In this document: piece after piece, positions 1,591 through 47,036 of the stretch | Layout: the number at the start of each line of letters is the position of its first letter | Numbering within the stretch: the stretch's first letter is position 1 | Source of the DNA: an uncultured Candidatus Poseidoniales archaeon | GTDB taxonomy: Archaea > Thermoplasmatota > Poseidoniia > Poseidoniales > Thalassarchaeaceae | NCBI GenBank assembly: GCA_964618995.1 | Contig: CAZUBQ010000002.1 | Location: forward strand, 25,352-89,351 | Length of the DNA stretch: 64,000 nt | Reading direction: 5' to 3' | Notes under the pieces: model-generated | What the model saw: only the letters and a program-made list of their open reading frames with translations | Databases searched by the model: none | Told to the model about the DNA's origin: nothing | Position numbers and translations under genes: made by a program

Positions 1591-1679
1591 GGTATCTCCT
1601 CAAGCGACCCGCCGACCTGCTCCCCCTTCATAACCGCTACGCTGCAAGGATGCATGCTCTCTTGTGTAACCTAGTCCAT

Positions 1680-10828: not shown

Positions 10829-10916
10829 CCGCGTCACCACCAGCAATCCAGCGCGCGGGCGTGTAGGCAGGACATAGATTATCGCTGGCAAGGAAGGAGA
10901 ACCAAGTGGAGTTGGG

Positions 10917-11480
10917 GTGATGGACGACTGGGACCACCTGACTGACGAAGACTTGGACCGGTTCGCCCTAGCCGGAACAAGAGATGCGATGCAGGATGAG
11001 GAGAGCGGCGTCAGGGAGTACTCGAGCTTGATGCTCGCTGACGGGCTGTTGTACGCTGTAGGAGTGATTGCTGTCATGAATTCGGTGCTCGAAGCAGACA
11101 TGTTCCTGTTCTTCTGCGGATCGGGGCTGTGGCTCTGTTCACAATCCATCAACCGTTTTCGGCGATTACTACCCTTGTGGTTGCGTGCAGCCTTGAACAT
11201 GGAGATTGACCCTCCCGATTGGGAGATTCTGACATCCAAGCAGAAGAAGCGCCGTATCGTGACCGTGTTCGTTGCCGCTGCACTGTCCGGCCTCACCGCC
11301 TGGCGCTTCACGGTCGGGTTCGATGAGATCGCCACTCGCAGCGGAGTACCGTTCCACCTCGTCATCTTCACACTGGCTGGGATGTTGGCCCTGCTCGGAC
11401 TGCACTGGATCCGTTTGCTGATGGCTGACGAGGGCATCTACGAACCCCATTCCATGGAGCACGAAGAGCCGTGGGGCTGA
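10917..11480 (+). CDS. hypothetical polytopic membrane protein
   Basis: Acidic N-terminus, then four or more hydrophobic helices. Divergent from pcp. Confidence 0.5.
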   Translation: MMDDWDHLTDEDLDRFALAGTRDAMQDEESGVREYSSLMLADGLLYAVGVIAVMNSVLEADMFLFFCGSGLWLCSQSINRFRRLLPLWLRAALNMEIDPPDWEILTSKQKKRRIVTVFVAAALSGLTAWRFTVGFDEIATRSGVPFHLVIFTLAGMLALLGLHWIRLLMADEGIYEPHSMEHEEPWG

Positions 11481-34200: not shown

Positions 34201-35630
34201 CTGGAGCGGAACAGGTGGAACACAGGGCAGGTGAATTCACTGTCCCACACCTTCTCACTCTGACACGTGCCGCTCACGTTACTGAAGGTGTTGTCCGCGA
34301 ACCATCCCCGAGCAGGCTGTGGACCAGACACAGTCCAGCCCTGGTCCCCGAAGTGGTACTCGCCGAGAATGACCGGTTCGCGGTTGATGTCCTGGAATGT
34401 GTTGTTGTCAGCGATGATGTCAACATAGCCGACACCCCAGATTCCATTGTAGCCACCAATCGGGCCGATGATGTTGCGGCTGAACTTGACCTCTGCCAAT
34501 TCCGGGTAGTTTGACACGACCTGGATTCCAGACCCATCATCAGCACCCTCCATCACGTTGTCCTCGAAGGTCACCAGAGCGCCGTCATAGGCGGTGAGCG
34601 GTGAGTTGTCTGCGGTTGAAATGCTGTTATGGTTAGCAAACAGTTCGTAGTCGTAGCCAAGAATCGTTCGCCTTCCATTGACATCGATTCCTGTGCAATC
34701 AGTCTGGAGCGTGTTGCTTGATATCGTTCCCGCGGAATCAGTGTAGCGATAACCGTAGTCCGCGCTGGCAACCACACCGTGGTCGATGTTCAGGAACGAC
34801 TTCTGCGCCCAGACGACGTGGCGGCCGTTGTCCTGTGAACTACATCCAGAGGATGTGCCAGAGAACACGGGGCTGTCAAGAGTCACCGGGTTGTTTGGCG
34901 TGCCCGCGCCGTAAGCCTGGATGGCCTGTCCAAGCAGAGACTCGACGCGCTCCTCGCTGCCGACGGTGAACGTACCACCGACGAAATGTGGTGAGGCAAG
35001 ATCGAGGATGAGCACACTTGAGGTGTTGATATCCTCAAACAACAGCCCTGTCGATGTCGGGCTGGCACCATCGAAGACCAGCGCGCCGTAGCGCACCTCG
35101 CTGATGTCAGTGGCGAAGCGGGGGATTCCATACGCATTCTTGATCTCAAGGTGATTCAACTTGGTCTGCTGCACATCGATGGTATCCCTGATTAGGATGC
35201 CTTCGTAGCAAGAGGGGTCCGCGTTGTAGAGCGGCTGGCCGTTGGACGGGTTGTTCAGCCAGTAGCAGTTTCCGCGGGCCGACCAGTTGCTCGGATCGCT
35301 CCAAGTGAATGTGGCCTTGCTCGAGTTGCTCCCCATGCCATTTGCGCCACAGCCAGTGTCCGCCGCGCATAAGTTGCCCCTTACGTGTAGGAACGTACCG
35401 TTCGCCATGGTGACCGTAGTCCCGGGCTGGATGATCAGTTTCGCCCCGGGCGCCACCTCCACGTTACCGGTGACCGTGTGTGACCCCTGCCATATCTCGG
35501 TTCCAGATATGACTCCGCTCTGGGTTTCATTCGAAGCGACGGCGGTCGGCAGAGCCAACAACAGCGCGCTCAGCGAGGTGAGCACCATGAGGCTCACCAG
35601 CGTGAAACTCTTCATTCGATTGTCATTCAT
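31230..35630 (-). CDS. giant (about 1470 aa) surface protein with right-handed parallel beta-helix (PbH1) repeats, Ig-like/CARDB-like domains, one C-terminal TM and a Gln/Ala/Pro-rich cytoplasmic tail; probable start MNDNRMKSF, or MKSF at ~35615
   Basis: Signal peptide MKSFTLVSLMVLTSLSALLLALPTAVAS. Repeated N-x-x-x-G-x-A-I motifs typical of pectate-lyase-fold repeats. A DGIDNDGD calcium-type loop. TM ILWALLLVVIVALLGGVFVFFFV. Tail with AAAQPAAHAAAQPAAEPAAQPA and YPGWQWD...NQW. Confidence 0.8.
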   Translation of the reverse strand: MNDNRMKSFTLVSLMVLTSLSALLLALPTAVASNETQSGVISGTEIWQGSHTVTGNVEVAPGAKLIIQPGTTVTMANGTFLHVRGNLCAADTGCGANGMGSNSSKATFTWSDPSNWSARGNCYWLNNPSNGQPLYNADPSCYEGILIRDTIDVQQTKLNHLEIKNAYGIPRFATDISEVRYGALVFDGASPTSTGLLFEDINTSSVLILDLASPHFVGGTFTVGSEERVESLLGQAIQAYGAGTPNNPVTLDSPVFSGTSSGCSSQDNGRHVVWAQKSFLNIDHGVVASADYGYRYTDSAGTISSNTLQTDCTGIDVNGRRTILGYDYELFANHNSISTADNSPLTAYDGALVTFEDNVMEGADDGSGIQVVSNYPELAEVKFSRNIIGPIGGYNGIWGVGYVDIIADNNTFQDINREPVILGEYHFGDQGWTVSGPQPARGWFADNTFSNVSGTCQSEKVWDSEFTCPVFHLFRSSVSIHRNTVNNAQGDAIRAIGAIIDVQDNSFTAAGVGARVVQHDVPSGPQYGSLAFFSGNTWNNVSQVYNISESSVTVQSELIPNPTSSTTYPMELRWISADADPNNGWGNKLDLAPTQIIPPRNFPLSLELVNNSTVLTFANLTNFDLSKAHIAQAAGTWSVQLRRAELVRFRATVNGVRVGGATVLLEDAHGNDMYDMDTDPFGFTPWVALPSDFHLDIRGNGDNPNDFAGDPGENSCSDGIDNDGDLLYDSDDPDCQQGSATRELSKYYVTTYKFGKGYEKHWFNLTGTLDQVISLDNMAPTVTVTQLDGHSFKRQVNFTGSGWDGNIGTGIFNSDEQARWEQKGAIERIEIKTPASSSWNDTRYAVDDSNANGEVTSDNRPFRIWHFEYDMSLEPENDYTFEFRAWDGVDYSPVVTRTIRLNTVAPVIHVVTPTDGSLFDSGIVTFSGTASDPYNGVYGSDIDQIHFEISSSVFNTTTVPVVGGPIWSWDWNFSGMPKVRTDWMFRIWASDSSFCRGVIGECTPVELTLDIDNTNAPPLITLIEPYDMQVVRAGPDTIISGVARDTDGDVSKVEIRILDPQDAMNERPPGPHSVITTIAPNGAWSTTWDTSRLVHDFHYLVQARSKDGQLYSDWVQREIIIDNPPDANNLAPIYLAEGETVDLLDGSSVTQEQSWQRTHVIFCEENSQAPDRCGDGASVELAGWFYDPEGEDLSIEVWDDPQTYDDDQCAEQIQIDVNGKATYNPVAMSFYSPDMAEWSCSGMKFLAKDPHNSKAYSLEVDFVVNAVSFSVQRVGSGNIDVDGTVTFAGTGRPGVEVVARSGLNAMRLGSAQISENGSWTIDVPASKLERGSNIVVFDYDNERMTETSYSIQVGDADDGSKFGWILWALLLVVIVALLGGVFVFFFVEFEEVDDESLLMSEESQEDEDVYAWGKQAPQEQAAAQPAAHAAAQPAAEPAAQPAYPGWQWDAASNQWIPDQSGGPPQQ
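31290..31385 (-). repeat. coding low-complexity repeat (AAQPAA x4)
   Basis: CTGCTGGCTSTGCTG-type units on the plus strand. They encode the cytoplasmic tail of the beta-helix giant. Confidence 0.6.
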
Positions 35631-35699
35631 GTTCACATACTCCTGATGTGAGCGGCCGATGGAGGGACTGAATATAAGCAAGAAGGCTCGACGCAATAG

Positions 35700-35790
35700 T
35701 ATTTGTATCAATTATCACTGTTTGTATCAATATTTTCTCGCTAATTTTCCTTACACTGTATCAATTTCAATGAAATGTATCAATTATTAA
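35700..35790 (-). promoter_or_regulatory. AT-rich upstream regulatory island with four direct copies of TGTATCAAT (candidate transcription-factor binding sites) upstream of the beta-helix giant gene
   Basis: Copies at ~35704, 35723, 35757 and 35776, arranged as 19-bp-spaced pairs 53 bp apart. Local GC is ~28% versus ~62% for the window. A TATA-like CTTATAT lies ~45 bp upstream of the ATG. Confidence 0.5.
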
Positions 35791-35861: not shown

Positions 35862-37163
35862 TCACGTGGAAGAGGCAAGTCTGACCTCGACCTCTTCAAG
35901 CCAGGAGGTAGCATTCAACACCCCGTACCCGTAGCGCAGGTGGTGATCATCCAGCATCAACGGACTGGGGTCACATGAGTCGGCCAGAGCCTGCTTCACC
36001 AGGTCAATCGGCGCGCGATCACCCTCAGCAGCAGGTTGCAGCGCACCATGGTCTCGATGCCGCTCGAGGATCAATGCCAGCGCCCCGGTCACGAACACGG
36101 TCGCATCGCTTGTACCATCGCTGCGTGACCAAGTCGCACCTAGCTCCGTGGAGACGAAGGTGGAGTGGATCATCACCCCTGGGGCAACGACCTCAGGCTT
36201 CTGGTCAGGGGTGGACCTAGAACTCCCATCCGCCAATGTTGTTGCTCCGGCGCTGCTCTCTGACCACAGTGTCCGGTTACGGTGCACTGCTCCGACAGCG
36301 ATCACGTCATCGATATTCGCCGGGACGCTGACGTCCGGGTAATCCTGACCCGCCCCACCATGGTTACCAGCTGCCGCGACCACGAACACTCCGTTGTCGA
36401 GCGCCACATCCACAGCTTGCTCCGTACGTGTCCCGAGTTCAGTCACGAAGTCGGGCTTCCCCCCCAGACTCAGGCTGATGATGTGTGCCTGTTTCTCCAG
36501 CCAACACCATTCGATCGCATCCGCCACTACATTCTCAGCCCCGGATGAACCGTCGGCACCGAGCGCGGCTGCCACGATCAATTCGATTCCGGGCGCCGCT
36601 CCCGTGAACGTACCCTGAGCAGCGAGAATGCCCGCCATCATCGTGCCGTGCGAATGGGTTGCATCATTGTCGTGTGGATCTCCTTCCGTGTCGTGGACGA
36701 AATCCCGGAAGGCAACCAGATTGACATCAGATAGGTCCGGGTGGCTCGTGTCGATTCCTGTATCCACCAAGCATACTCGTACTCCCGCTCCTGTGAGGCC
36801 GATGTCGTTGAGGTCGCGGATGCCTGTTTCCTCGTATGCCCACTCAGAGTTGGGGATCAGGTCCTCGATGTAACTGGTCAGTAGATTCTGCGTGACCAGC
36901 AGCACAGCCAGCAGGATGATGATTATCCACAACCCCCATGGAAGGATGAGTGGGGGGCGCACTGGTCTGGCTGCGTCCGCCTCCTTCCAGCCACCAGGGT
37001 CCCGGTCGGAGGGCAGTCCGTAATCCTCAGCGGGGTATCCGGGTGCCTCGGGGTCGATTGCCGACAGCATTCTCGGTTCTTCAGGCTCTGGCAGGAACTC
37101 GACATCTTCCAGACCGAGTACCATCTGCTCCTCTCCGTACACTCCGAGGAGAGTACGCTTCAT
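35862..37163 (-). CDS. subtilisin-like serine protease (peptidase S8, halolysin-like) with an N-terminal signal-anchor (type II membrane topology)
   Basis: Catalytic Asp in VCLVDTGIDTSHPDL, catalytic His in HSHGTMMAGILAA, and a Ser motif near DGTSDAT. N-terminal cytoplasmic ~70 aa followed by TM LILPWGLWIIIILLAVLLV. Confidence 0.8.
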   Translation of the reverse strand: MKRTLLGVYGEEQMVLGLEDVEFLPEPEEPRMLSAIDPEAPGYPAEDYGLPSDRDPGGWKEADAARPVRPPLILPWGLWIIIILLAVLLVTQNLLTSYIEDLIPNSEWAYEETGIRDLNDIGLTGAGVRVCLVDTGIDTSHPDLSDVNLVAFRDFVHDTEGDPHDNDATHSHGTMMAGILAAQGTFTGAAPGIELIVAAALGADGSSGAENVVADAIEWCWLEKQAHIISLSLGGKPDFVTELGTRTEQAVDVALDNGVFVVAAAGNHGGAGQDYPDVSVPANIDDVIAVGAVHRNRTLWSESSAGATTLADGSSRSTPDQKPEVVAPGVMIHSTFVSTELGATWSRSDGTSDATVFVTGALALILERHRDHGALQPAAEGDRAPIDLVKQALADSCDPSPLMLDDHHLRYGYGVLNATSWLEEVEVRLASST

Positions 37164-37220: not shown

Positions 37221-40200
37221 TCAGAAAGGCGCGGCTCCGGTCATACCGGACCTGACTCTCCTGTAGAGGAGGAATCCTATGAGGAACATGGCGATGATGA
37301 TCATCGGAACCCATGTGTTGACGGATTCAGGAGCGGGTGTGGCGACATGGATGGTCTCCATCTCATTGGTATCTGAAGATGCATCCAGATCATCCAGTTC
37401 CGAGACGATGATGGTGAAGTTGAACTTCTGGTTCCCGATACCAACCCCTTCCAAATCGAGGAACAGCATGTAGTCGACTGTCTTACCCGCTGGAATGGCC
37501 AGATTGTCAGATTCAGTGAAGAGTTCGGGGTATTCGGGCATGTCAAGCCGTATCTTCACTTCGCGTGCATCGACAAGACCGTCGTTTTTCACGCGCACGA
37601 CGAACTGGTTGCGTGAGCCTGTGATCGCATCTCCTCCGCTGAAGGTGTCGATGTCCTCAAATGACAACAGTGGCCGAGCCGCCTTGACCTCTATGGAGAT
37701 CGGCGGGTAACTGGTGTTGTCCTCACTGCTGATATTCAGATGCAGCTCAAAGGATTCATCGCCTGCGTCCGCGGGTGCGAACACGGTGAACGAGTAGGTG
37801 CGCGCCTCACCGCTGTTGTACGGGGACTCCTGCGGCCCGGTTGCGCTCCATCCCTCTGGCAGCCAAGTCGTGTCAATCTCAAACTGGATGGTGTCATGAC
37901 CGTTTCCTGCATTCTCAATCAAGAACTCCACTCGTTGCTCATCACCGGGATAGACCCCTGTTGTACCCTCAGGCTGCTCGAGCACGTTCACCTGGTAGGT
38001 CTGTGGAATGCGGACCGTCAACACATGCTCGCTGGAGGAGCCGTCAGTATGAGTCAGTCTGAGCGTGATTCTGTGACCATCATCCAATGAAGTGGAATTA
38101 CTGAGGTTCGCCGGTTGGACACGCATGGTGAGGTCGAGGGTGCCCGCGCTGTCCAAGCCAAGTTGAATCTTCTGCTCCTCCACCCATTGGATAGTACCAT
38201 TGGCATCGGTGCCATTGTGGAACTCGACCGACCAGTACTCGATGTCCTCGGCGGAGAAGACGGTCGTGACGTTATACTCGTCAAGTGCCTCATTGCCTGT
38301 GTAATCAATCTCGATTGTGAACTCGATCACCTCGAACACATTGCTCTCGTTCGATTCCACGACATCGACGTCGTTGTTCATCTCCTCGTGCTGAGTTGCC
38401 CCAGTGACCGAGGTGACATTGAACTGAACTCCGTGGTTAAGGTGGCGATTGAAGCGCAGGGTGTTGACCGGCGTCTCCTGTTCGGAGGCGATATCGATCG
38501 AAAGGCCGGCGCTGTAGGTCATGTTCAGCCCGTGTTCAAACGTCTGGAATTCACTCTCGAGGAACAATGTCCCCTCGGGTAGCAACAGGTCTACGTTGCC
38601 TTCGGAATCGACACCGACCACCCATTTGCGGTTGTCTCCCATATCAAAATCGATGGACGGTGTATCGAGCATCTCAGCACCCGGTACATTCGAGTCTCCG
38701 AGGTGATGGTTTTCGCCCTCGAAGTCAATCCATGAGGTGGCGATGTGCAGGATGCCGCCTGGCTCCAGCGTCAGGTTCACCTCCGCGCCTTCGTGCACGC
38801 TTGCATCCACGAGAATCACACCGACCACGCCGGCGGCTTCGTTTGTGGCAATCAACACCCATTCTCCGGGTTCGACATCCGCACTCCACGAGCCGTTCCA
38901 GTCACCCCCGTTATCGAGTAGTTTTTCGGGTGTGTGGGAATCTCTCTCGATTCCAGTGTGCGGTACGAGCTGAAGAACAACGCCTCCAGAGATATCGTCC
39001 CACACCTCCATCTGCACGTAATCTATCAGGCCCACCACAGTGACGTTTCCTGCCAGCAATTCCAAATCGGTCGAGTTCGAAGTCTCGGCGATGACGATTG
39101 TGGTGTTTACAGGGGCGAATCCGATACGGGTTGCTTCGATGGTGTAGTTGCCGAGAACGGGTACGAACAATTGCCATGTTCCGAGTTCGCTGCTGGTCAA
39201 GTTGACGTCCTCTGGCAGGCCGCCTCCGCTGACGCTGATGTTCGCACCTTCGACGCCTTCACCCTGATCGTATTCACCGTCGTCATCGAGATCCCAGAAC
39301 AGATTCCCGCCGAGGGTGACCCAATGCTCCAAGATTATCGAACTGTTGTCCGGTGTCTGTTCTCCGTCGCTGAGTTCAGCCAAGGTCTGTGATTCGAGTA
39401 GCCAACGCTCCTGAGAGAACGTAGCGTTCAGGGACAGCGACCACGTCCCTGGCCATATGTAGGCGTCGAGCACGCCATCCGAGTTGGTCGCGGGCAGCGT
39501 TATGTTACCCAGACCATCCTCGCTGTGGGCGATTAACTCGAACCCGGTCATATTCTCCCCGCTACCCTCCTCGAAGAAGGATATCAGCAGATGAGCAGAT
39601 TCCTTAGTACGCCAAGAGATTCCATCGAGGCTGGCGTTGCCGTCGATGACTAGCAGGCCACGGAACTCCTCATGTGTCACGCCGGTGTTGAATCGCTCAA
39701 CAGTGACTATCCACTCGCCTTCGGGAAGATAGTCGAGCAGGGTACCGTTCTCGTCTGTGAAGCGAATGAACTCGATTTCGCCGTCTACAGATTCAAAGTT
39801 CACCTGTCGCTCTGCCACCGCTCCGCTGGAGAAATTGGTCAGTTCAGCGTTCACCCGCCACATGGGCAAGAAGGGCATCTCAACTACCTCGCTCACGTTG
39901 TTCACGCCAAGTGCCAGCACGATGTTTTCTGCGGCCGCCAACTGGGTGTCGTAGGCGCTGCCGTTGGTGGCATTCTGCGGCTCTACGGCAATCGTGTAGA
40001 CACCAGGTTCCACGTTCACGGTGATGCGACCATCGGTGAACTCGGCGGAGGTGACGTTCAGGCCAATCCCCAGACCACCCGCTGAAATCGGTACGAAAGC
40101 CAGGTCGATGTCGATGAGCGTGCCGTTGCTGACGTTCGCATCACCCTCATGGTCGATGAAGGCGGTGATGTCGACGGTGATGTTGTCCGGTTGCGCCATC

Positions 40201-43200
40201 AGCACTAAGTTCAGAAGGTTCTCACTGTTGTTGAGCGAGACGTTGATGTCCATCGATTCGAGGTTGAACCAATCATCATCTATGCTCAGTGTCCAGAGAC
40301 CTTCCTGCAATTTGTTTCCGAAGCGGCCGTCCGAGTCCACCTCTAGGAACCAGTGTACATCACGGGCGTGGTCGTATGCGTGAATCTCCACCGGTCGGTA
40401 GAAGGGGAAGTTACTGGTGTACAACGTCAGGTTGCGATTGATGAACATAGTGCCAGAGAAAGGCAGACCATTCTCGAGGAAGAGCACGATTGGATCCATC
40501 CCCTCAAGCACCTCGAACTGGGTTCCGTTGGACAGTTGGCTGGCAATCGAACGAGCGGTCATGTTGACGACGGCATGTTCGGGAAGCAGCAACGAGAAGT
40601 TGCCCTCCATATCTGTCGTCACCGACGTCTCTATGCCACCCCATTGGAACTCAACCACTAGGTTGTGCGCCGGATCGAATGGGTCATCCTCCTTCTGGGT
40701 GTGCACGAGAATCGTGCCGTTCACCTCGACGCTGCGAACAAGCGTCCACTCCAAGCCGCTCATGTCCTCGATTACCTCGAACTCCTCCCAGAGCATCAGG
40801 CCATCTGCACCTGTGCTGTTGGCCACCCATCCACCCATGGGCAACTCGATGTGGTAGGAACTCGTGTTGTTGTCATAACGAGCTTGCAGGTACTCATCAT
40901 CGAGCAACAACTCGCTGTGGAACCACACTTCGGAGTCACTCACTGGCTCGACCGTTCCTCCGCCCAATTCGGTCCAGACCGTGAACTCGACATCATAGTG
41001 CACCGGAACCGGGTTGGCGCTACTGATGAGTGAGAACTCCTGCGCATCGATGATGGCTGAGATATGCGCGACTCCGTTGCACACACCGTATCCAGTACCG
41101 TTCCACGGAACGCACTCGTTGAATCCATCACCATCGTAGTCCATGCTCAACGAGTAGTTGCCGTCAGGGAGAGGACCGAAACCGAACGAGCCGTTCTCAT
41201 CTGCGGTAATGATGCATGGGGCGAAGAAAGTGACCTCGCATGGCTCGATGGCAGGGCTATCCGGCAGGCTGTTGTCGAGAATCTCCAGTGGAGCATCGCT
41301 GACCATCGAGCCATTCATCCACTTCAGTTCGCCACTGATGTGTGACCCTGGCATCAGCAGTTCGACATCAGCGATAGGTTCTGTTTCGACATCGAGGGAC
41401 GTCGACAGTCGAGTGCGCTTGCCATTGCCGAGTATGACCTCGACTCGATAGGTACCGGGCAGAGCATCGACGAGATGGAACGATCCCGGCTCCACCATTT
41501 CCCCAGTGAAGATACCGACTCCGCTGAACAATCCCGTGCCATTGAACACTCCGTACGTCTCAAGTTGATCGTCGCTGGTGTTGGTGATGAAAATTCCTGC
41601 ACCGACAAACGTCTCCCTGTACATCTCTGTAGTGAAGTCCAGAGTGCCATTGGCGGTGACCCTGCCACTGCCATCCAACTGATTGATGAACACGTACTTC
41701 GGCGGATTACTACCGAGAATCAAACATATCTCATCGTCCTCCGGAACAGTCTCGTTCACGCAGTTGGAGAGGTTGGATGGCGGGTTAACAAGCGTACCTT
41801 CGAATGTGCCCGCGCCCTTGAACTCGCCACTACCGGTGAAGGAGTGGTTGTGTAGTATCTGGCGAGTGAAATTGCCCGTGAAGTCAGAGACGAGCACAGT
41901 ACCCTCAGATTGCATCACGCCAATTCCGGTGAAGGTTACCTCACCTGTTCCGCGGAAGGTTCGCGGATGCTCTTCATCTGATTCAACCGTCCCATTGGTG
42001 GTCCAGATGTGCGGGAGTTCCCGCTGAGTCCAGATCTCTGTTAAGATGAGTTCGTGAGAAATGAGTGGCTCACCGTCGAATGAGGCGTGACCATCCCAGG
42101 CAACGGTGCCCGAGGCGCTAGATGCCGCGATGACAAGTGTCTGCTCGATAACCTGCTCACCGTTCGAGTCGGCTTGCTCTCCGGTGACATTGAACTCTAT
42201 CTCGCCAATCCACTTCCCTCCTGAGACATTCGCCAGCAGCGCGGTGACCGGATTGATGGTTCGTCCATCTTCCGGCTGGTCTCCAAGCACGTCTGTGAGC
42301 CAAGTTTGCCAGGTCTGGAAGTTGCTCTGTGCTTGAGTGATCTTATCGATTGACACCTGACGCGCCTCGGTCTCCTCTCCTGTGAACCCGGTGAACGCTG
42401 TGACGCGGATGTGGCCTGCAGGTACCCTGAACTCGAAGTGACCGTCATCGTCTGCATCGACGGTGCCGATTGGAATCCAGTATTCACGCGGATCGTCGTC
42501 GTTAGAACTCTCGCCACTGTAGGCATCGCGCTCGATGAGGAGGCGCGCATTGGGCACAGTGGAGATGTCTCCAAGTTGGACTTCACCCGACAAAGTCGCT
42601 CCAGAATAGTACTTCAGAATCTTGACCGCGGTGTTCGCATCATACCATGGCTTCGTTCCGTCGTCATTGTCCTCGTCATACCAGTTGGCGATCACGAAGT
42701 GGTTCATCATCGCCGCTGGAAGCGGGAAGGCGTACTGCAGTGAAGAATTCGACGTGCCGCGCATATCGAAGTGCTGCCCTGGCTGAGCAGGGTCTGTGTT
42801 GAGCACGTCATCGAGACCAAGCTGAGGAGAACCGTAGCCGATGTAGGTACGAGCGACCATCGTGTCGAAGAACTCCGCCTCATGATCCACCCTGATATCC
42901 ATGAGTTGTATAATCTCTAAATCGTTCTGCGACTGGCTGCGCACGACGTCATCCTTGTACTCCGCTTCGTACTGCTCGGACGACATTTCTACAGGATAAC
43001 CTGACGCGCCGCGCTGAGTGACGTACAACGTCTCGAAGTATGTGTCAGGATCGAGCCCTGAGAGTGTGGTCGGGGCGTAGAAGATACCCGTGGGGTTGCC
43101 TCCGCTGGAGGAGTAGGCGCCCGCAACGGGGTAGAGACGATTGTCTACTGCAAAGTAGCGGATCTCGTGGTTACGATCGATCGTGTCTCCGGGCTTGCCG

Positions 43201-46200
43201 CCAGAATCGTCGACGGTGTAGGTGATCTCATTGGACACCTCATGGTTGAGCGTGACCAACTCGTCGAGTGTGAGTGCGGTGGACAGGAAGGTACGCCCCA
43301 GCGCCAGCCGTGCATTCTGCCGGTGAAGCGAGGTCGTGGCGTCGGCGAAGTCATCGACGATGTCCTTGGTGTACCAGTAGTCACCGATGATGTAGTGCGT
43401 CACTTCCTCCGTTACCACGTCGTTGCGGTGCTTTGTTGAGTTGAGTGATCCCATTGCATCGGACAGAACATTGTGTTCTGTGCCATCCCACTCCCGACTG
43501 TCGTAGACCCGGTAGGATTTCGTGAGAACAGGCATGCCGATGTCGTTGAGGTGATATCCTTCTCCGAGGGAGATGCTGCCCGCTGTGTGAGTGATGGTGA
43601 ACGAGTGATCGACGACAACCGATTCGCCATCAACCCCCAAGGTCGTCAGCAGCACGAATTCGTCGTACTGGGTGTCTGACAGGGCGCGGTGCAGGGCGTT
43701 GTCGAATCCTGGTGTGAATCCTCCGTCACCGCTGTAGCGCAAATCGCCCTCGGCGAGCGTCAGTATCCAGAGTGCCAGCAAATCCTCCTCTGACTGAGCG
43801 AGCAGCATGTTCCCTGAATTCGGAATACCGCTCTGGAAGTTGTCCGCCACAGTCGGGTGTTTCCCCTGAGCGAGCGCCTGGAATCCATAATCCCACCAAG
43901 AGACGAACGCCGGGCGTTGCGCGAACGGCATTTCCTGATCCTGTTCTTCGAGCCACTGGTAGCCATCGTTCCAATAGCGTCCATTGAAGCCTGAACCGAA
44001 AGACCCCATGTACCAACAACTGGTCGACTTGCTGGAGCCGCGACAACCGCTTGACGGGTTGTACTGGGTGTCGTCGAACACAGAGAATCCGAAAATCGGG
44101 TCAGCGGTGCGCAGCAGCCGCGGCGTGATGTTGTAGATTGATGAATCGACATCCTTGGCTGCGGAGTTCCCCTGCGGGATGCCGGCATCCAGTCCGTAGG
44201 TGGCGTGCTGGCTGACGAGCAGCATGAACACAAGCAGGATGGCCCCCACAGCAGGGTGCTTCTTCAGCGCCTTGGTACCAGAAGTGAATCGTGCCTTCGG
44301 AGTGCCAACCCCGAACCTGCGCCATGATTTGGCAATCTGGTCGCCGCCACACATGCTCCACAAGAGAGTGATCGACCACGCCCCCATGACCGCCACCGGA
44401 GGAGTCGCATTGAACACGAACCGTCCGGCGCGCCATGCCATGAAACCGGCAACGAGCATCCACACCGCCAGCACCAGTTTCACCCGGTCCTGCTGGCGCA
44501 CACCCTGCCACAACGCCGCGAGTCCTGAACCGACGGCCAGCAGCGCAACGAGCGGCCCGAATGAACCGAACAACATCCCGCGGCTGGGAGCCTGTGCCTC
44601 AGCGATTGTCCCGAATATCTTGTTCTTGCTGAAGTAGTAGCCACCCGTGAACAGCACCTCCCATGCAGAGGTGTCCTGCAACACATCGACGATGAACCAG
44701 CCAGCCGCGCCGATGATGCCGAGTACGAGCACGATGGATTGCGGATTGATCTTGGATTCGTAGCTCGCGAGGAACATCCAGATGAACAGCAGACCGGCGG
44801 CGAGCGCACCGAAGTACCATTCGATGGAGAAGTTCACACCTCCTGCGATGATCAGCATACCTATGATTGCCGGTCCGGCGATGACCAACCACGGCAGATC
44901 ACGACTGGCGGATGCGATGTATCCCGTGACGAACGTGAATGCGAGGATGTAGAACATCGGCTGGAATCCGCTGGCGTCCCACACGAGTTTCAACTCCATG
45001 TGAGCGTAGAACGGGAGTGGCAGAAGGAAGGCACTGATCATCATAGCCAATGCAGCGACCGTGAGTGGCATGCTGTCACGACGCCGGAACATGTTCAGCA
45101 GTACCTGAGTGAAGAAGGCTGCATACAAGATGGCGAGACCATAGACGAATCCCTTCCACCCAAGTGCAACAGTGGCAAACGCGAAGCCTGCAAGGATAGC
45201 ATTGGAAACCGCAGTCGGGCGTTGCTCAATGGTCGCCTTCACACCCCTGAGGAAGTACGAGGGGCGCCACGAGGAGTTGGCTACGAGTTTGTCGCTGCCC
45301 GCCGCCTCGACCGCCTTCAACCAGAAGTAGAACCCGAGCGTCAGGAACAGGATGACGAACGCGTCGTGGTCCGCCATCGCGAACGTGCTCTTGGAGACGT
45401 GCCCCGGCATCAGGGCAATCAGCCAAGCGGCCACTGCCCCGGTGCCCTTGCTGAAGAATCGCCGACCGATTGCCGCCATCGGCAACACTGTGAGAGAGCC
45501 GTAGATGACAGGCAGAGCGGACACCGACCACCAGACCGATTCTTCTGCAGGTACTCCGAGAATCGGGGCGAGCAGCAATCCTCCGACAGCCATGCTCCAT
45601 GCGAACAGCGGTGGCCGCGGATTAATCGCTCCGAGCGGATAGGAGCGATCCATGTCGATCAGGAAGTGGCTGTGCTGGGCGAGAACGTACTCCACGGCGC
45701 GCATCATGTACCACGGATCAGAACCTCCGGTCAGATCCCACTCATGGGTCCCGCTGGCGTTCATCGCCGGTATGACGCTCCATACTGAGCGAATGATCAG
45801 CGCAACCAACATCGCGGTGAACACTGTGATTCCGTACCAGTGTGCGGACCACCAGAGACGAGCCGGGCCGGGTAAGCGCCGCGGTGATGTGTCTCCGAGC
45901 TTGCCCATGACGCCGAGAATGATGGCGACCGAATTCACCCAGAAGAAGATGAAGAACCAGACGAACAGGCCATTGCTTCCCCCGAAGTATGAATGCCAAT
46001 CAGATGATCCTGTCAGGATGAGGCCCTTCTCCTGCAATCCCGAGAGAGAGAACAGCAGCCAATTTGCGAGTAAGAGCGTTGCCCGGGTCTTCCAGCGCTC
46101 GGATACGAAGAACATCGCCAGCAGCGAGAGGATACCGGTGAACAGAGCCCACCAGATGCTCATGTGATCGCCAGCCAGCCGCGCACCTTCATCGGATGAG

Positions 46201-47036
46201 AAGAAGGAGGCGAGTACGGTGACGTGGGCGAGCATCCAGAGTGCGAACCCGGCGTAGAGCGGCCACGTCGAGCGGGAATCCAGACGTTCTGGGAGGTTGA
46301 CGAACCAGCCGCCGCGACCAGCGGGCAGCAGTCTGCCGCGCAGGGCGAACGTGGCGAGCGCACCGGCCAGCATGCTGACCATCCAGGTGTTGAAGAACAG
46401 GAAGCCGACCTCCTGTCGGTGACTGTCCAGATGTCCCCAGTAGGAGCTGTCAGCAACATCGAGAGCCGGCAACCAAGCGCCGCCCACCCACTGTGAACCG
46501 TCGAATGTCGGTGCAGCCACGGCTGCGAACGACAGCGCGGCGTAGAACCCCATCACGGTCCAGGTGAGGATGTTCGCTTCCTCGAAACGACCTGCTCTGT
46601 CAAACAGATGCACGCCGAGTGCGAGTACGACGAAAAGCAGACCGAGAAGCGTGTCGCCGATGACCAACTGCGGTATGGCTGCAGCCAACACAAGCGGCGC
46701 GAAAATGAACAGCGTGACATGCGAAGGCTTGACGCTGAGGCCGGAGAAGATGATGCGGGGGGTTACCCCTAGCAGGGCTCCGATCGTCAGTAGAACGAAC
46801 GGAAGCACCTGATTCATCACGGCTTCTTGGCTGTCATACGTCACGCCCAGCGGGTACATCGTCATCGTCAACAGCAGTAGCACGACCCCGGCTAACGGGG
46901 CCGCGAACAGACTGCGCACGGTGCTGACACCCGAGGACGTGCTGTCGTTGTCGTCCATCGTTTTCCCTCTTGATTGACAGTCGTCAGACTGTCGGCGTCG
47001 CCGCCACCTAGCAATGTGGTTTAACGGTTGCCACAC
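37221..47036 (-). CDS. aglB: giant (about 3245-3271 aa) STT3/AglB-type oligosaccharyltransferase fusion. It has an extra N-terminal polytopic membrane domain, an STT3 catalytic core, a ~2200-aa extracellular beta-rich C-terminal region and a C-terminal TM anchor. Probable ATG start at ~46958 (MDDNDSTSS).
   Basis: STT3 signatures appear in the right order. First GSDPWYMMRAVEYV (the DPW(Y/F)xxR motif). Then AMADHDAFVILFLTLGFYFWLKA (the DxD block, compare eukaryotic SYDNEGIAIF...FYLWIKA). Then FVSWWDYGFQ (WWDYG), followed by VADNFQ (the DNNTW/DK region). The remainder is Ig/CARDB/carboxypeptidase-regulatory-like beta domains. It ends in WVPMIIIAMFLIGFLLYRRVRS. Confidence 0.75.
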   Translation of the reverse strand: MWQPLNHIARWRRRRQSDDCQSRGKTMDDNDSTSSGVSTVRSLFAAPLAGVVLLLLTMTMYPLGVTYDSQEAVMNQVLPFVLLTIGALLGVTPRIIFSGLSVKPSHVTLFIFAPLVLAAAIPQLVIGDTLLGLLFVVLALGVHLFDRAGRFEEANILTWTVMGFYAALSFAAVAAPTFDGSQWVGGAWLPALDVADSSYWGHLDSHRQEVGFLFFNTWMVSMLAGALATFALRGRLLPAGRGGWFVNLPERLDSRSTWPLYAGFALWMLAHVTVLASFFSSDEGARLAGDHMSIWWALFTGILSLLAMFFVSERWKTRATLLLANWLLFSLSGLQEKGLILTGSSDWHSYFGGSNGLFVWFFIFFWVNSVAIILGVMGKLGDTSPRRLPGPARLWWSAHWYGITVFTAMLVALIIRSVWSVIPAMNASGTHEWDLTGGSDPWYMMRAVEYVLAQHSHFLIDMDRSYPLGAINPRPPLFAWSMAVGGLLLAPILGVPAEESVWWSVSALPVIYGSLTVLPMAAIGRRFFSKGTGAVAAWLIALMPGHVSKSTFAMADHDAFVILFLTLGFYFWLKAVEAAGSDKLVANSSWRPSYFLRGVKATIEQRPTAVSNAILAGFAFATVALGWKGFVYGLAILYAAFFTQVLLNMFRRRDSMPLTVAALAMMISAFLLPLPFYAHMELKLVWDASGFQPMFYILAFTFVTGYIASASRDLPWLVIAGPAIIGMLIIAGGVNFSIEWYFGALAAGLLFIWMFLASYESKINPQSIVLVLGIIGAAGWFIVDVLQDTSAWEVLFTGGYYFSKNKIFGTIAEAQAPSRGMLFGSFGPLVALLAVGSGLAALWQGVRQQDRVKLVLAVWMLVAGFMAWRAGRFVFNATPPVAVMGAWSITLLWSMCGGDQIAKSWRRFGVGTPKARFTSGTKALKKHPAVGAILLVFMLLVSQHATYGLDAGIPQGNSAAKDVDSSIYNITPRLLRTADPIFGFSVFDDTQYNPSSGCRGSSKSTSCWYMGSFGSGFNGRYWNDGYQWLEEQDQEMPFAQRPAFVSWWDYGFQALAQGKHPTVADNFQSGIPNSGNMLLAQSEEDLLALWILTLAEGDLRYSGDGGFTPGFDNALHRALSDTQYDEFVLLTTLGVDGESVVVDHSFTITHTAGSISLGEGYHLNDIGMPVLTKSYRVYDSREWDGTEHNVLSDAMGSLNSTKHRNDVVTEEVTHYIIGDYWYTKDIVDDFADATTSLHRQNARLALGRTFLSTALTLDELVTLNHEVSNEITYTVDDSGGKPGDTIDRNHEIRYFAVDNRLYPVAGAYSSSGGNPTGIFYAPTTLSGLDPDTYFETLYVTQRGASGYPVEMSSEQYEAEYKDDVVRSQSQNDLEIIQLMDIRVDHEAEFFDTMVARTYIGYGSPQLGLDDVLNTDPAQPGQHFDMRGTSNSSLQYAFPLPAAMMNHFVIANWYDEDNDDGTKPWYDANTAVKILKYYSGATLSGEVQLGDISTVPNARLLIERDAYSGESSNDDDPREYWIPIGTVDADDDGHFEFRVPAGHIRVTAFTGFTGEETEARQVSIDKITQAQSNFQTWQTWLTDVLGDQPEDGRTINPVTALLANVSGGKWIGEIEFNVTGEQADSNGEQVIEQTLVIAASSASGTVAWDGHASFDGEPLISHELILTEIWTQRELPHIWTTNGTVESDEEHPRTFRGTGEVTFTGIGVMQSEGTVLVSDFTGNFTRQILHNHSFTGSGEFKGAGTFEGTLVNPPSNLSNCVNETVPEDDEICLILGSNPPKYVFINQLDGSGRVTANGTLDFTTEMYRETFVGAGIFITNTSDDQLETYGVFNGTGLFSGVGIFTGEMVEPGSFHLVDALPGTYRVEVILGNGKRTRLSTSLDVETEPIADVELLMPGSHISGELKWMNGSMVSDAPLEILDNSLPDSPAIEPCEVTFFAPCIITADENGSFGFGPLPDGNYSLSMDYDGDGFNECVPWNGTGYGVCNGVAHISAIIDAQEFSLISSANPVPVHYDVEFTVWTELGGGTVEPVSDSEVWFHSELLLDDEYLQARYDNNTSSYHIELPMGGWVANSTGADGLMLWEEFEVIEDMSGLEWTLVRSVEVNGTILVHTQKEDDPFDPAHNLVVEFQWGGIETSVTTDMEGNFSLLLPEHAVVNMTARSIASQLSNGTQFEVLEGMDPIVLFLENGLPFSGTMFINRNLTLYTSNFPFYRPVEIHAYDHARDVHWFLEVDSDGRFGNKLQEGLWTLSIDDDWFNLESMDINVSLNNSENLLNLVLMAQPDNITVDITAFIDHEGDANVSNGTLIDIDLAFVPISAGGLGIGLNVTSAEFTDGRITVNVEPGVYTIAVEPQNATNGSAYDTQLAAAENIVLALGVNNVSEVVEMPFLPMWRVNAELTNFSSGAVAERQVNFESVDGEIEFIRFTDENGTLLDYLPEGEWIVTVERFNTGVTHEEFRGLLVIDGNASLDGISWRTKESAHLLISFFEEGSGENMTGFELIAHSEDGLGNITLPATNSDGVLDAYIWPGTWSLSLNATFSQERWLLESQTLAELSDGEQTPDNSSIILEHWVTLGGNLFWDLDDDGEYDQGEGVEGANISVSGGGLPEDVNLTSSELGTWQLFVPVLGNYTIEATRIGFAPVNTTIVIAETSNSTDLELLAGNVTVVGLIDYVQMEVWDDISGGVVLQLVPHTGIERDSHTPEKLLDNGGDWNGSWSADVEPGEWVLIATNEAAGVVGVILVDASVHEGAEVNLTLEPGGILHIATSWIDFEGENHHLGDSNVPGAEMLDTPSIDFDMGDNRKWVVGVDSEGNVDLLLPEGTLFLESEFQTFEHGLNMTYSAGLSIDIASEQETPVNTLRFNRHLNHGVQFNVTSVTGATQHEEMNNDVDVVESNESNVFEVIEFTIEIDYTGNEALDEYNVTTVFSAEDIEYWSVEFHNGTDANGTIQWVEEQKIQLGLDSAGTLDLTMRVQPANLSNSTSLDDGHRITLRLTHTDGSSSEHVLTVRIPQTYQVNVLEQPEGTTGVYPGDEQRVEFLIENAGNGHDTIQFEIDTTWLPEGWSATGPQESPYNSGEARTYSFTVFAPADAGDESFELHLNISSEDNTSYPPISIEVKAARPLLSFEDIDTFSGGDAITGSRNQFVVRVKNDGLVDAREVKIRLDMPEYPELFTESDNLAIPAGKTVDYMLFLDLEGVGIGNQKFNFTIIVSELDDLDASSDTNEMETIHVATPAPESVNTWVPMIIIAMFLIGFLLYRRVRSGMTGAAPF

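What the first reader, a model, noticed from the sequence alone, without database searches (positions are those of the whole stretch)
37221..47036. A 3.2-kaa AglB/STT3 oligosaccharyltransferase fused to a giant ectodomain
Canonical archaeal AglB is about 600-1050 aa. This single ORF carries the STT3 hallmarks in the correct order (DPWYxxR, then an ADHD DxD block with FYFWLKA, then WWDYG, then VADNFQ). An extra ~400-aa polytopic domain precedes the core. About 2200 aa of tandem beta-sandwich (Ig/CARDB/CPD-like) modules and a terminal TM helix follow it. I know of no described OST with this architecture. It implies either an OST tethered to a cell-surface scaffold (placing N-glycosylation on a huge S-layer-spanning stalk) or a catalytically altered STT3 used as a membrane anchor for an adhesin. 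A membrane-anchored S8 protease sits immediately downstream.
Basis: partly seen in the sequence, partly recalled or inferred. Interest (0 to 1): 0.85.

Follow-up and report, generated by a model that had tools for sequence, protein, structure and literature searches.

The report
Giant oligosaccharyltransferase of marine MGII archaea
This single 3,245-residue gene is the N-glycosylation enzyme (AglB/STT3) of a Marine Group II archaeon, fused to an extra 10-helix membrane domain and a long, sugar-site-rich stalk anchored in the membrane at both ends; the same layout occurs in hundreds of genomes of these abundant ocean archaea, yet I found no paper describing it.

Summary
Window 37221..47036 (-) is one uninterrupted ORF; the likely start is Met27 at 46958. 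STT3 is detected by Pfam. The DPWY, DHD and WWDYG motifs align to A. fulgidus AglB-L residues. A TIXE motif is present. Foldseek's best hits are AglB, STT3 and PglB.

It is not an assembly artefact and not a one-off:
- More than 110 protein clusters of 3,125-3,269 aa are collinear with it end to end.
- 451 species genomes encode a relative. The best 80 are all Poseidoniales and include long-read and single-cell assemblies.
- The order purD, giant aglB, S8 protease is conserved.

All four motifs are kept in 113/113 orthologues, and dN/dS is 0.06-0.13 along the whole gene. The "dead membrane anchor" reading is therefore disfavoured.

The regular AglB part ends near aa 1550. The true extras are:
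- a 10-TM N-domain seen only in MGII-type proteins;
- a ~100-aa insert;
- a ~1,690-aa acidic, sequon-enriched stalk of divergent beta-sandwiches;
- a C-terminal TM helix whose last residue is always Phe.

MGIII and other Thermoplasmatota have 2,000-2,775-aa versions without the N-domain, so the stalk fusion probably predates MGII.

Verdict: a new variant of a known enzyme family. The stalk's function is inferred, not shown.

The parts
37221..46958 (-). Probable CDS of the giant AglB (Met27 to stop, 3,245 aa). The mechanical ORF extends to the GTG at 47036.
   Evidence: The start is supported by the P0001 N-terminus and a GAGGG element 8 nt upstream.
45867..46958 (-). N-terminal polytopic domain (aa 27-390), 10 predicted TM helices, N-terminus inside. 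Found only in MGII-type proteins. No known family.
   Evidence: AF2 helices. K+R count is 10 in predicted cytoplasmic loops against 2 outside. No Pfam or NCBIfam hit. No relation to the STT3 TM core and no internal duplication by hhalign. Its HMM hits only MGII-type proteins among 315 collected.
44187..45866 (-). STT3/AglB GT-C transmembrane domain (aa 391-950).
   Evidence: Pfam PF02516. phmmer alignment to AfAglB-L 3waj. Foldseek top hits 7e9s, 3wak, STT3A/B and PglB.
45708..45719 (-). First acidic motif, DPWY (D440), in external loop 1.
   Evidence: Aligned to AfAglB-L GGNDPWYYYR. Present in 113/113 orthologues. Coordinates checked.
45363..45371 (-). Second DXD-type motif, D556-H-D558.
   Evidence: Aligned to AfAglB-L NDHH. 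Present in 113/113. Coordinates checked.
44598..44609 (-). TIXE motif, T810-I-A-E813 (external loop 5).
   Evidence: Pattern found in 113/113. Not residue-aligned to a solved structure.
42387..44186 (-). Regular AglB extracellular globular region (aa 951-1550). It holds the WWDYG core, a ~100-aa insert absent from the non-MGII relatives in alignment A4 (about aa 1120-1225), and the first CarboxypepD_reg-like sandwich, which matches the last domain of AfAglB-L.
   Evidence: Model 2 gives pLDDT 80-90 over the insert.
43884..43898 (-). WWDYG motif (aa 1047-1051), forming the +2 Ser/Thr pocket.
   Evidence: Aligned to AfAglB-L W550WDYG and to AfAglB-S1/S2. Present in 113/113.
43071..43163 (-). Candidate DK/MI-type motif (aa 1292-1322): IRYFAVDNRLYP, a variable insert, then GIFYAP. 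Read as D<>IxxxP.
   Evidence: D, R, P and I..AP are invariant across 10 diverse relatives, with a variable-length insert between them. The pattern resembles the variant E<>KXXX(M/I/P) of PMC3703281. The model is low-confidence here, so this is inference only.
37332..42386 (-). Extra ectodomain or stalk (aa 1551-3235). Acidic (pI ~4), sequon-enriched, made of divergent tandem beta-sandwich modules.
   Evidence: Pfam CarboxypepD_reg, plus a sub-threshold NPCBM_assoc match; sub-threshold NCBIfam choice_anch_T. Orthologues add sub-threshold NOMO1-like, SdrD_B and SpaA matches. Foldseek hits to pilin and adhesin stalks. hhalign self-repeats. No DNA tandem repeats. 55 sequons against 15.3+-3.4 expected in aa 1650-3235. 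dN/dS 0.10-0.13.
37224..37331 (-). C-terminal TM helix plus short basic tail ending in Phe (aa 3236-3271).
   Evidence: TM helix in 114/114. Terminal F in 114/114.
35862..37163 (-). Membrane-anchored S8 (subtilisin-type) peptidase, the conserved downstream neighbour. The gap is 57 nt, so co-transcription is possible.
   Evidence: Pfam Peptidase_S8 E=1.8e-42. TM at aa 72-90. D/H/S motifs visible in the sequence. Directly downstream on the same strand in 41/45 loci.

Best explanation
This is the aglB gene of a Marine Group II (Poseidoniales) archaeon, probably related to Thalassarchaeaceae. It encodes the catalytic oligosaccharyltransferase of N-glycosylation, in the giant form that is standard for this order.

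How the core should work is inferred from the family. The GT-C core (aa 391-1550) should act like other AglB/STT3 enzymes. D440, D556/D558 and E813 would hold the divalent metal and activate the acceptor Asn on the outer face of the membrane. WWDYG, together with an Ile-type variant of the DK/MI motif, would bind the +2 Ser/Thr. The glycan would come from a dolichol-phosphate-linked donor.

Three additions are fused to this core:
1. A 10-TM N-terminal domain of unknown role, found only in MGII-type proteins.
2. A stalk of ~1,690 aa made of divergent beta-sandwich modules.
3. A final TM helix that brings the chain back to the membrane, with a short basic tail in the cytoplasm.

The ectodomain would therefore be a loop anchored at both ends. 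I infer that the stalk is itself heavily N-glycosylated, possibly by its own catalytic domain as it emerges, and that it forms a fixed part of the cell envelope: a glycosylated canopy or spacer that keeps the OST attached to the surface layer.

Shown here: enzyme identity, intact motifs, conservation, collinearity, purifying selection, sequon enrichment, predicted topology.
Inferred: catalytic activity, glycosylation of the stalk, and its envelope role.
For: Identity:
- PF02516 above threshold; TIGR04154 E=1.7e-52.
- Residue-level alignment of D1, D2 and WWDYG to AfAglB-L.
- Foldseek top 17 hits are all AglB, STT3 or PglB.

Likely active:
- DPWY, DHD, TIXE and WWDYG in 113/113 orthologues.
- Core dN/dS of 0.055-0.069.
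- A Thalassarchaeaceae (genus O1) oligosaccharyltransferase gene was more highly transcribed in field samples where that genus was active (PMC9723583).

Real and conserved:
- More than 110 clusters of 3,125-3,269 aa, collinear at 33-57% identity.
- 451 species genomes encode a relative.
- Uninterrupted ORFs in long-read MAGs and a single-cell genome.
- purD upstream in 67/67 loci and S8 downstream in 41/45.

Stalk as a constrained glycoprotein:
- dN/dS 0.10-0.13 and only 3-8% gaps.
- 55 sequons against 15.3+-3.4 expected. Enrichment in all 114 proteins (window plus 113 orthologues): median z=7, minimum 4.2.
- Sequon Asn is better conserved than other Asn, 0.62 against 0.32.
- pI ~4; beta-sandwich stalk folds.

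Topology:
- 10 N-domain helices obeying the positive-inside rule.
- C-terminal TM plus basic tail in 114/114.

The fusion probably predates MGII. Thermoplasmatota proteins of 2,000-2,775 aa share the core, a distal stalk collinear at ~21% identity, and a C-terminal helix in 79/81.
Against: - No enzymatic, proteomic or glycoproteomic data exist for this protein.
- The DK/MI motif is not canonical, and the model is low-confidence at the catalytic loops.
- I could not check whole genomes for a second, ordinary aglB. Only the window and the flanks (up to 10 kb each side) of the related loci were searched, and each has one copy.
- The stalk matches no S-layer family, and its abundance at the cell surface is unknown.
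- NCBIfam TIGR04154 is hit below its trusted cutoff (179 against 450 bits).
- Self-glycosylation in cis is pure inference.
Confidence: 0.7

Rival explanations
1. Precursor (polyprotein) model. The gene is translated as one chain, then cut by the conserved neighbouring membrane-anchored S8 protease or another protease. This would release an ordinary-sized AglB and a separate surface glycoprotein anchored by its C-terminal helix.
For: The S8 peptidase lies directly downstream on the same strand in 41/45 loci. It has an N-terminal anchor, an outward-facing catalytic domain and visible D/H/S motifs. A helical linker (aa ~1555-1600) separates the regular AglB part from the stalk. Some Thermoplasmatota relatives carry PGF-like C-terminal sorting signals typical of processed surface proteins.
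Against: No cleavage site has been identified. The S8 gene is absent next to the one Thermoplasmata giant AglB locus I looked at. If the two halves worked independently, gene fission should be frequent. Instead the fusion is kept in every unfragmented locus.
Confidence: 0.15
2. Built-in accessory-subunit model. The stalk and terminal TM helix are not a coat. They would play the role of the non-catalytic, single-pass luminal beta-domain subunits of the eukaryotic OST: holding or presenting substrates, or coupling the OST to the secretion machinery. The C-terminal helix would dock onto the STT3 TM bundle.
For: A C-terminal single-pass helix follows beta-sandwich domains in 114/114 proteins. Weak NOMO1-like beta-sandwich hits appear in orthologues. 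Length and collinearity are strictly conserved, which is unlike variable adhesins. The comparison with ribophorin- and OST48-type subunits comes from my own knowledge and was not tested.
Against: A 1,690-aa stalk is far larger than any accessory subunit. Strong sequon enrichment points to a substrate or coat rather than a chaperone. The NOMO hits are below threshold. Docking of the helix could not be modelled because of the 1,200-aa limit.
Confidence: 0.1
3. Dead-enzyme anchor. The STT3 module has lost catalysis and only anchors an adhesin.
For: The DK/MI motif is non-canonical. TIGR04154 scores below its cutoff.
Against: D1, D2, TIXE and WWDYG are invariant in 113/113 orthologues spanning 33-57% identity. 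Core dN/dS is 0.055-0.069, lower than in the stalk. No second STT3 was seen in the window or in the flanks of the related loci.
Confidence: 0.03
4. Assembly or gene-calling artefact joining an aglB to a separate surface-protein gene.
For: Some contigs show the gene split, for example L001 as 848+168+2136 aa. Five of 44 loci have shorter ORFs.
Against: 39/44 complete loci give 3,162-3,322 codons. A 1.6-Mb single-contig long-read MAG, a 698-kb long-read contig and a single-cell genome all carry uninterrupted ORFs of 3,179-3,210 codons. More than 110 independent full-length clusters exist. The L001 region is fragmented into many short gene calls throughout, so I read its split as frameshift errors.
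Confidence: 0.01

Closest known systems
Archaeal AglB-L, e.g. Archaeoglobus fulgidus AglB-L (PDB 3WAJ, 3WAK, 7E9S)
   Same: GT-C transmembrane domain. First acidic motif, second DXD-type motif and WWDYG all align residue by residue. A TIXE motif is present. The C-terminal globular domain ends in a beta-sandwich that aligns with aa ~1471-1548.
   Different: AfAglB-L is 868 aa. This protein adds a 10-TM N-domain, a ~100-aa insert in the core unit, a ~1,690-aa stalk and a terminal TM helix. The second motif is DHD rather than DHH. The DK motif appears replaced by a D<>IxxxP variant, which is an inference.
Giant AglB homologues (2,000-2,775 aa) of MGIII and other uncultured Thermoplasmatota (e.g. 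P0147, P0275, P0313)
   Same: Core identity of 28-34%. Shared regular globular domain, a distal stalk collinear at ~21% identity, and a C-terminal hydrophobic helix with a basic tail.
   Different: They lack the N-domain and the ~100-aa insert, and are ~500-1,000 aa shorter. A few carry PGF-like sorting signals, which MGII proteins never do. No S8 neighbour was present in the one locus examined.
Eukaryotic STT3 within the multisubunit OST complex
   Same: Same catalytic fold and DXD/WWDYG chemistry, with a DxD-type second motif as in eukaryotes. Large extracytoplasmic beta-rich modules with single-pass anchors accompany the catalytic subunit.
   Different: In eukaryotes those modules are separate subunits, unrelated in sequence and much smaller. 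Here everything is one polypeptide. No homology to OST accessory subunits was detected.
Archaeal S-layer and surface glycoproteins with C-terminal anchors (e.g. the Haloferax volcanii S-layer glycoprotein)
   Same: Acidic, sequon-rich, built of beta-sandwiches, with a C-terminal membrane anchor.
   Different: No sequence-family match. No PGF-CTERM in MGII proteins. The module is covalently fused to the enzyme that would glycosylate it. Lattice formation is unknown.
Tandem CnaB/prealbumin-like stalks of Gram-positive pilins and adhesins (B. anthracis TIE, PitA, SdrD B-repeats)
   Same: Best structural matches for aa ~1600-2230, with sub-threshold SdrD_B, SpaA and above-threshold CarboxypepD_reg HMM hits in the window protein or its orthologues.
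   Different: Fold-level resemblance only (6-14% identity). Module number and order are fixed across orthologues rather than variable. There are no near-identical repeats.

Membership tests
STT3/AglB/PglB oligosaccharyltransferase (GT-C fold, Pfam PF02516) | Sequence match to the STT3 transmembrane-domain model above the curated threshold | tested here: met
   PF02516 scores 59.7 bits against a cutoff of 24.5, E=4.8e-16, over aa 439-777. Three orthologues also match.
STT3/AglB/PglB oligosaccharyltransferase (GT-C fold, Pfam PF02516) | First acidic (DXD-like) motif in external loop 1 | tested here: met
   GGSDPWYMMR (D440) aligns to AfAglB-L GGNDPWYYYR. Invariant in 113/113.
STT3/AglB/PglB oligosaccharyltransferase (GT-C fold, Pfam PF02516) | Second DXD/DXH motif | tested here: met
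   AMADHDAF (D556, D558) aligns to AfAglB-L GFNDHHIW. Invariant in 113/113.
STT3/AglB/PglB oligosaccharyltransferase (GT-C fold, Pfam PF02516) | TIXE/SVSE motif in external loop 5 | tested here: met
   T810-I-A-E813 lies between TM segments. The pattern occurs in 113/113. It was matched by pattern and position only, not aligned to a solved structure.
STT3/AglB/PglB oligosaccharyltransferase (GT-C fold, Pfam PF02516) | WWDYG motif in the extracytoplasmic core unit | tested here: met
   aa 1047-1051 align to AfAglB-L W550WDYG and to AfAglB-S1/S2. Present in 113/113.
STT3/AglB/PglB oligosaccharyltransferase (GT-C fold, Pfam PF02516) | DK or MI motif on the kinked helix (second half of the +2 Ser/Thr pocket) | tested here: inconclusive
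   The candidate is D1298...I1318-F-Y-A-P1322, with a variable insert between the two parts. It is invariant in 10 diverse relatives. It resembles the variant E<>KXXX(M/I/P) (PMC3703281) but has Ile in place of Lys. Model pLDDT is below 50 here.
STT3/AglB/PglB oligosaccharyltransferase (GT-C fold, Pfam PF02516) | GT-C fold similarity to solved OST structures | tested here: met
   Foldseek hits are 7e9s E=2.8e-9, 3wak, human STT3A/B, yeast STT3 and PglB, all at probability 1.00. TM-scores are modest (0.36-0.51 on the target) because the model is of medium quality (pLDDT 64, pTM 0.62).
STT3/AglB/PglB oligosaccharyltransferase (GT-C fold, Pfam PF02516) | Transfer of a lipid-linked glycan to Asn-X-Ser/Thr | not testable with these tools
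   Needs an enzyme assay or glycoproteomics.
NCBIfam TIGR04154 archaeo_STT3 (archaeosortase A system-associated OST subfamily) | Score at or above the curated subfamily cutoff | tested here: not met
   178.9 bits against a cutoff of 450. Tier-2 relatives score 232-275 bits. This is the best-matching model, but the protein is not a member by the curated rule.
Archaeosortase (PGF-CTERM-type) sorted surface proteins | PGF (or related) tripeptide, then a TM helix, then a basic tail at the C-terminus | tested here: not met
   The window protein and the 113 MGII orthologues have the helix and basic tail but no PGF (0/114). Seven of 81 Thermoplasmatota relatives have PGF, with only sub-threshold Loki- or Heimdall-CTERM hits.
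Archaeal S-layer glycoprotein | Match to a known S-layer protein family, high abundance, and lattice formation | tested here: inconclusive
   No S-layer family hit in Pfam or NCBIfam. The shared properties (acidic, sequon-rich, C-terminal anchor) are met. Abundance and lattice formation cannot be tested here.

The most novel reading that the evidence does not exclude
In Marine Group II archaea the oligosaccharyltransferase is also a principal envelope glycoprotein. This would be an enzyme-substrate fusion whose catalytic domain glycosylates its own ~1,690-aa tail as it is translocated, building a doubly anchored glycan-coated canopy. The MGII-only 10-TM N-domain would supply a coupled membrane function, for example delivery or flipping of the lipid-linked glycan, whose carrier in archaea is still unidentified.
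Probability: 0.15. Interest if true: 0.85.

Novelty: new variant of a known kind. Interest (0 to 1): 0.6.

Why it matters
Marine Group II archaea are among the most abundant archaea in the surface ocean and have no cultured representative, so their cell envelope is essentially unknown.

This OST is conserved and under purifying selection. It is three times the usual size and tied to a sequon-rich stalk anchored at both ends. That makes it a concrete candidate for a major envelope component. It could serve as a target for labelling or enrichment of these cells, and it may be a site of virus contact.

For glycobiology it is a natural single-chain enzyme-plus-scaffold OST. It raises three testable questions: does it glycosylate itself in cis, what does an OST gain from a permanent extracellular stalk, and does the fused 10-TM domain act in lipid-linked glycan handling?

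The N-domain-less 2,000-2,775-aa versions in MGIII and other Thermoplasmatota suggest that the stalk fusion is old and widespread rather than a curiosity.

Tried and rejected
1. A full-length homology search (3,271 aa) timed out. It was replaced by a search with aa 1-1150 and a search with a profile of the core.

2. "Short" homologues of 750-880 aa (P0005-P0009, P0006) looked like ordinary aglB paralogues. They end inside the TM domain. P0006 sits in a stretch of contig fragmented into many short gene calls, where the gene continues as 168- and 2,136-aa pieces. I rejected them as paralogues. Likewise, several of the 630-950-aa tier-2 representatives share clusters with 2,100-2,200-aa proteins.

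4. A second aglB. Only the window and the flanks (up to 10 kb each side) of the related loci could be searched, and each has one copy. Whole genomes are out of reach with these tools.

5. DK/MI motif. The profile search against PDB sequences did not align the kinked-helix region, and the AF2 model is unreliable there. The question is left inconclusive.

6. PGF-CTERM. Not present in MGII proteins. Only sub-threshold related hits appear in some tier-2 proteins.

7. Literature. Nine full-text searches found no description of a giant AglB. One paper reports an MGIIb oligosaccharyltransferase gene as more highly transcribed, without comment on its size. The held library omits most subscription journals.

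8. DNA tandem repeats as the source of the stalk: none found.

9. The third allowed homology search was not spent. N-domain or stalk queries would be swamped by the hundreds of MGII orthologues in the 120-row output.
Full report
OBSERVATION

Window 37221..47036 (-) is a single ORF of 3,271 codons starting from a GTG. The likely start is Met27 (ATG at 46958). A GAGGG element lies 8 nt upstream, and the 95%-identical database protein P0001 begins with the same MDDN.... The mature protein is therefore about 3,245 aa.

- DPWY at aa 440
- ADHD at 555
- FYFWLKA at 569
- WWDYG at 1047
- VADNF at 1063

Pfam finds STT3 (PF02516, 59.7 bits against a cutoff of 24.5) and one CarboxypepD_reg domain. It also gives weak AglB_core-like and NPCBM_assoc matches. 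The best NCBIfam model is TIGR04154 archaeo_STT3 (E=1.7e-52), but the score is below its curated cutoff.

The downstream gene (35862..37163, -) is an S8 peptidase with an N-terminal TM anchor. Upstream lie purD and a CDP-archaeol synthase gene, so the organism is an archaeon.

IS IT AN OST?

phmmer against PDB sequences aligns three motifs to A. fulgidus AglB-L: GGSDPWYMMR to GGNDPWYYYR, AMADHD to GFNDHH, and SWWDYG to SWWDYG.

An AlphaFold2 model of aa 27-1226 was built with 36 sequences (pLDDT 64, pTM 0.62). Its Foldseek hits are AfAglB (7e9s, 3wak), human STT3A/B, yeast STT3 and PglB, all at probability 1.00. TM-scores are modest because the model is only of medium quality.

All four catalytic motifs are present in 113 of 113 full-length orthologues.

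The third pocket element, the DK/MI motif, is not canonical. Across ten diverse relatives the invariant pattern is Y-x-x-x-D-x-R-x-x-P, a variable-length insert, then I-x-x-A-P (aa 1292-1322). This resembles the variant E<>KXXX(M/I/P) described for Archaeoglobus AglBs (PMC3703281), with Ile in place of Lys. The structure model is unreliable in this region, so I leave the point open.

IS IT REAL, AND HOW COMMON?

A profile search of the protein database returned more than 110 clusters of 3,125-3,269 aa from many marine metagenomes. Their names include:
- "asparagine N-glycosylation enzyme membrane subunit Stt3"
- "STT3 domain-containing protein"
- a UniRef entry from an uncultured marine group II/III euryarchaeote.

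All 113 full-length proteins are collinear with the window protein from end to end, at 33-57% identity.

A scan of one genome per species found 451 genomes encoding a relative. The best 80 all carry names pointing to Poseidoniales, apart from two bins evidently mislabelled as bacteria. Uninterrupted ORFs of 3,210, 3,179 and 3,189 codons occur in a 1.6-Mb single-contig long-read MAG, a 698-kb long-read contig and a single-cell genome. Thirty-nine of 44 complete loci give 3,162-3,322 codons stop to stop. The shorter ones look like frameshift fragments, as in L001.

Gene order is conserved: purD lies directly upstream in 67/67 loci and the S8 peptidase directly downstream in 41/45.

dN/dS against the 93%-identical L004 is 0.055-0.069 in the core and 0.10-0.13 along the whole stalk.

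The assembly-artefact and dead-enzyme readings are therefore very unlikely.

ANATOMY

1. aa 27-390: ten predicted TM helices with the N-terminus inside. K+R counts are 10 in predicted cytoplasmic loops and 2 outside. An even number of helices delivers STT3 TM1 in its normal orientation. The domain has no family match. It shows no relation to the STT3 TM core and no internal duplication. It occurs only in MGII-type proteins among the 315 collected.

2. aa 391-950: the STT3 TM domain.

3. aa 951 to about 1550: the regular AglB globular region. Its last beta-sandwich (VKILKYYSGA...HIRVTAF) aligns to the last domain of AfAglB-L. It contains a ~100-aa insert (about aa 1120-1225) that is absent from the non-MGII relatives in the alignment and is confidently modelled as a small beta domain.

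4. aa about 1551-3235: the true extension.
- It is acidic (pI ~4).
- It is all-beta where modelled (pLDDT 80-90).
- Its Foldseek hits are tandem CnaB/Ig-like stalks of pilins and adhesins.
- Pfam hits in this region of the window protein and its orthologues are all beta-sandwich families: CarboxypepD_reg above threshold; NOMO1-like, SdrD_B, SpaA, NPCBM_assoc and FixG_C below it.
- Profile self-comparison shows divergent internal repeats. There are no DNA-level tandem repeats, and few gaps among orthologues (3-8%). It is therefore a fixed structure, not a variable-number repeat adhesin.

5. aa 3236-3271: a TM helix and a short basic tail. The helix is present in 114/114 proteins, and the final residue is Phe in 114/114.

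SEQUONS

The stretch aa 1650-3235 has 55 N-X-S/T sequons against 15.3+-3.4 in shuffles. The N-domain, TM core and regular globular region have 1, 4 and 5. The enrichment holds in all 114 proteins, the window protein plus its 113 orthologues (median z 7.1, minimum 4.2). Sequon Asn residues are better conserved than other Asn (0.62 against 0.32 among close relatives). This is the signature of a selected N-glycoprotein.

WIDER FAMILY

An exhaustive phmmer search with the core shows a second tier at roughly 28-41% identity. It consists of many proteins of 2,000-2,775 aa whose STT3 core begins at about residue 5-170, so they lack the N-domain. Where named, they come from Thermoplasmata or Thermoplasmatota MAGs and from MGIII/Poseidoniia.

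These proteins share the core, the regular globular region, and a distal stalk collinear with the MGII stalk at ~21% identity. Seventy-nine of 81 end in a hydrophobic helix plus a basic tail. Seven have PGF just before the helix, with only sub-threshold Loki- or Heimdall-CTERM matches. Relatives of about 1,000-1,400 aa lack the terminal helix.

The stalk-plus-anchor fusion therefore probably predates MGII, which added the N-domain and the insert.

HOW IT MOST LIKELY WORKS

The core should catalyse glycan transfer as other AglBs do. The stalk leaves the membrane after the globular domain and returns through the terminal helix, forming a loop anchored at both ends.

Given its selected sequons, acidity, fixed architecture and purifying selection, I infer a glycosylated, structural envelope element that is permanently attached to the OST. 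It is possibly glycosylated in cis.

Two rivals remain open. One is processing by the conserved S8 neighbour into an enzyme plus a separate surface protein. The other is an accessory-subunit-like role in substrate handling. None of these can be separated without proteomics or biochemistry.

KNOWN OR NEW?

The sequences are public and generically annotated. Nine full-text searches found no paper describing a giant AglB. One metatranscriptome study lists an MGIIb oligosaccharyltransferase gene as more highly transcribed in samples where that genus was active, without remark on its size (PMC9723583). The library omits most subscription journals, so this absence is weak evidence.

I rate it a new variant of a known kind, with interest 0.6. 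The enzyme identity is ordinary. The architecture, its universality in a globally abundant uncultured order, and the unexplained N-domain are not.

LIMITS

- Whole genomes could not be checked for a second aglB. Only the window and the flanks of the related loci were searched, and each has one copy.
- aa 2230-3235 were not modelled.

Noticed in passing
window 37224-37226 (last codon); orthologues P0010-P0126: The last residue of the giant AglB is Phe in 114/114 proteins (KF 56, RF 50, PF 8), after a short basic cytoplasmic tail. A strictly conserved C-terminal aromatic residue suggests a recognition or docking signal. I know of no archaeal precedent.
   Followed up: partly
P0141, P0158, P0162, P0168, P0178, P0217, P0233 (C-termini): Seven of 81 Thermoplasmatota giant AglBs carry PGF directly before the terminal helix and basic tail, which looks like an archaeosortase-type sorting signal on an enzyme. 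NCBIfam gives only sub-threshold Loki- or Heimdall-CTERM hits.
   Followed up: partly
window 18012-23759 (-) and 12398-17875 (-): Two more giant ORFs (1,915 and 1,825 aa) have N-terminal signal-anchor-like helices, acidic pI and no Pfam hit. The 1,915-aa one is also sequon-enriched (41 against 16 expected).
   Followed up: no
window 31230-35711 (-): A 1,493-aa Big_7-containing surface protein with a TM helix near aa 1396-1414 and an Ala/Gln/Pro-rich tail. It follows the S8 gene here and in the related loci inspected (e.g. L001, L004-L006, L008-L010, L012), so aglB, S8 and this gene form a conserved surface-protein cluster.
   Followed up: partly
window 56700-58721 (-): A second, larger S8 subtilase gene (673 aa) lies about 10 kb upstream of the aglB locus.
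   Followed up: no
window 28649-31198 (-): An 849-aa protein with sub-threshold AAA_16/nSTAND3 NTPase matches and clear TPR repeats sits between the surface-protein genes.
   Followed up: no
L040 (JAOMAZ010000025.1) and L050 (CAXRJJ010000095.1): Contigs carrying the MGII giant aglB are filed under "Deltaproteobacteria bacterium" (a single-cell assembly) and "Yoonia sp." (a MAG). These are probably contaminated bins or mislabelled records.
   Followed up: no
L001 (ERZ10645735 contig_16102, 341 kb): The giant gene is called as 848+168+2,136 aa, and the surrounding region is broken into many short gene calls. This looks like frameshift errors in that assembly. Such fragments can pass for ordinary-length aglB genes in databases.
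   Followed up: partly
L083 1-7762: In a Thermoplasmata contig, the 2,449-aa AglB is preceded by an 8,356-aa protein and a 1,077-aa protein with faint Ig/PKD matches. In that one lineage the giant OST also sits in a giant surface-protein cluster.
   Followed up: no
window 9764-11437 (-): One 557-aa ORF combines a pyroglutamyl peptidase (Peptidase_C15) region with a NUDIX domain. It may be a real fusion or two adjacent genes read through by the mechanical ORF call.
   Followed up: no
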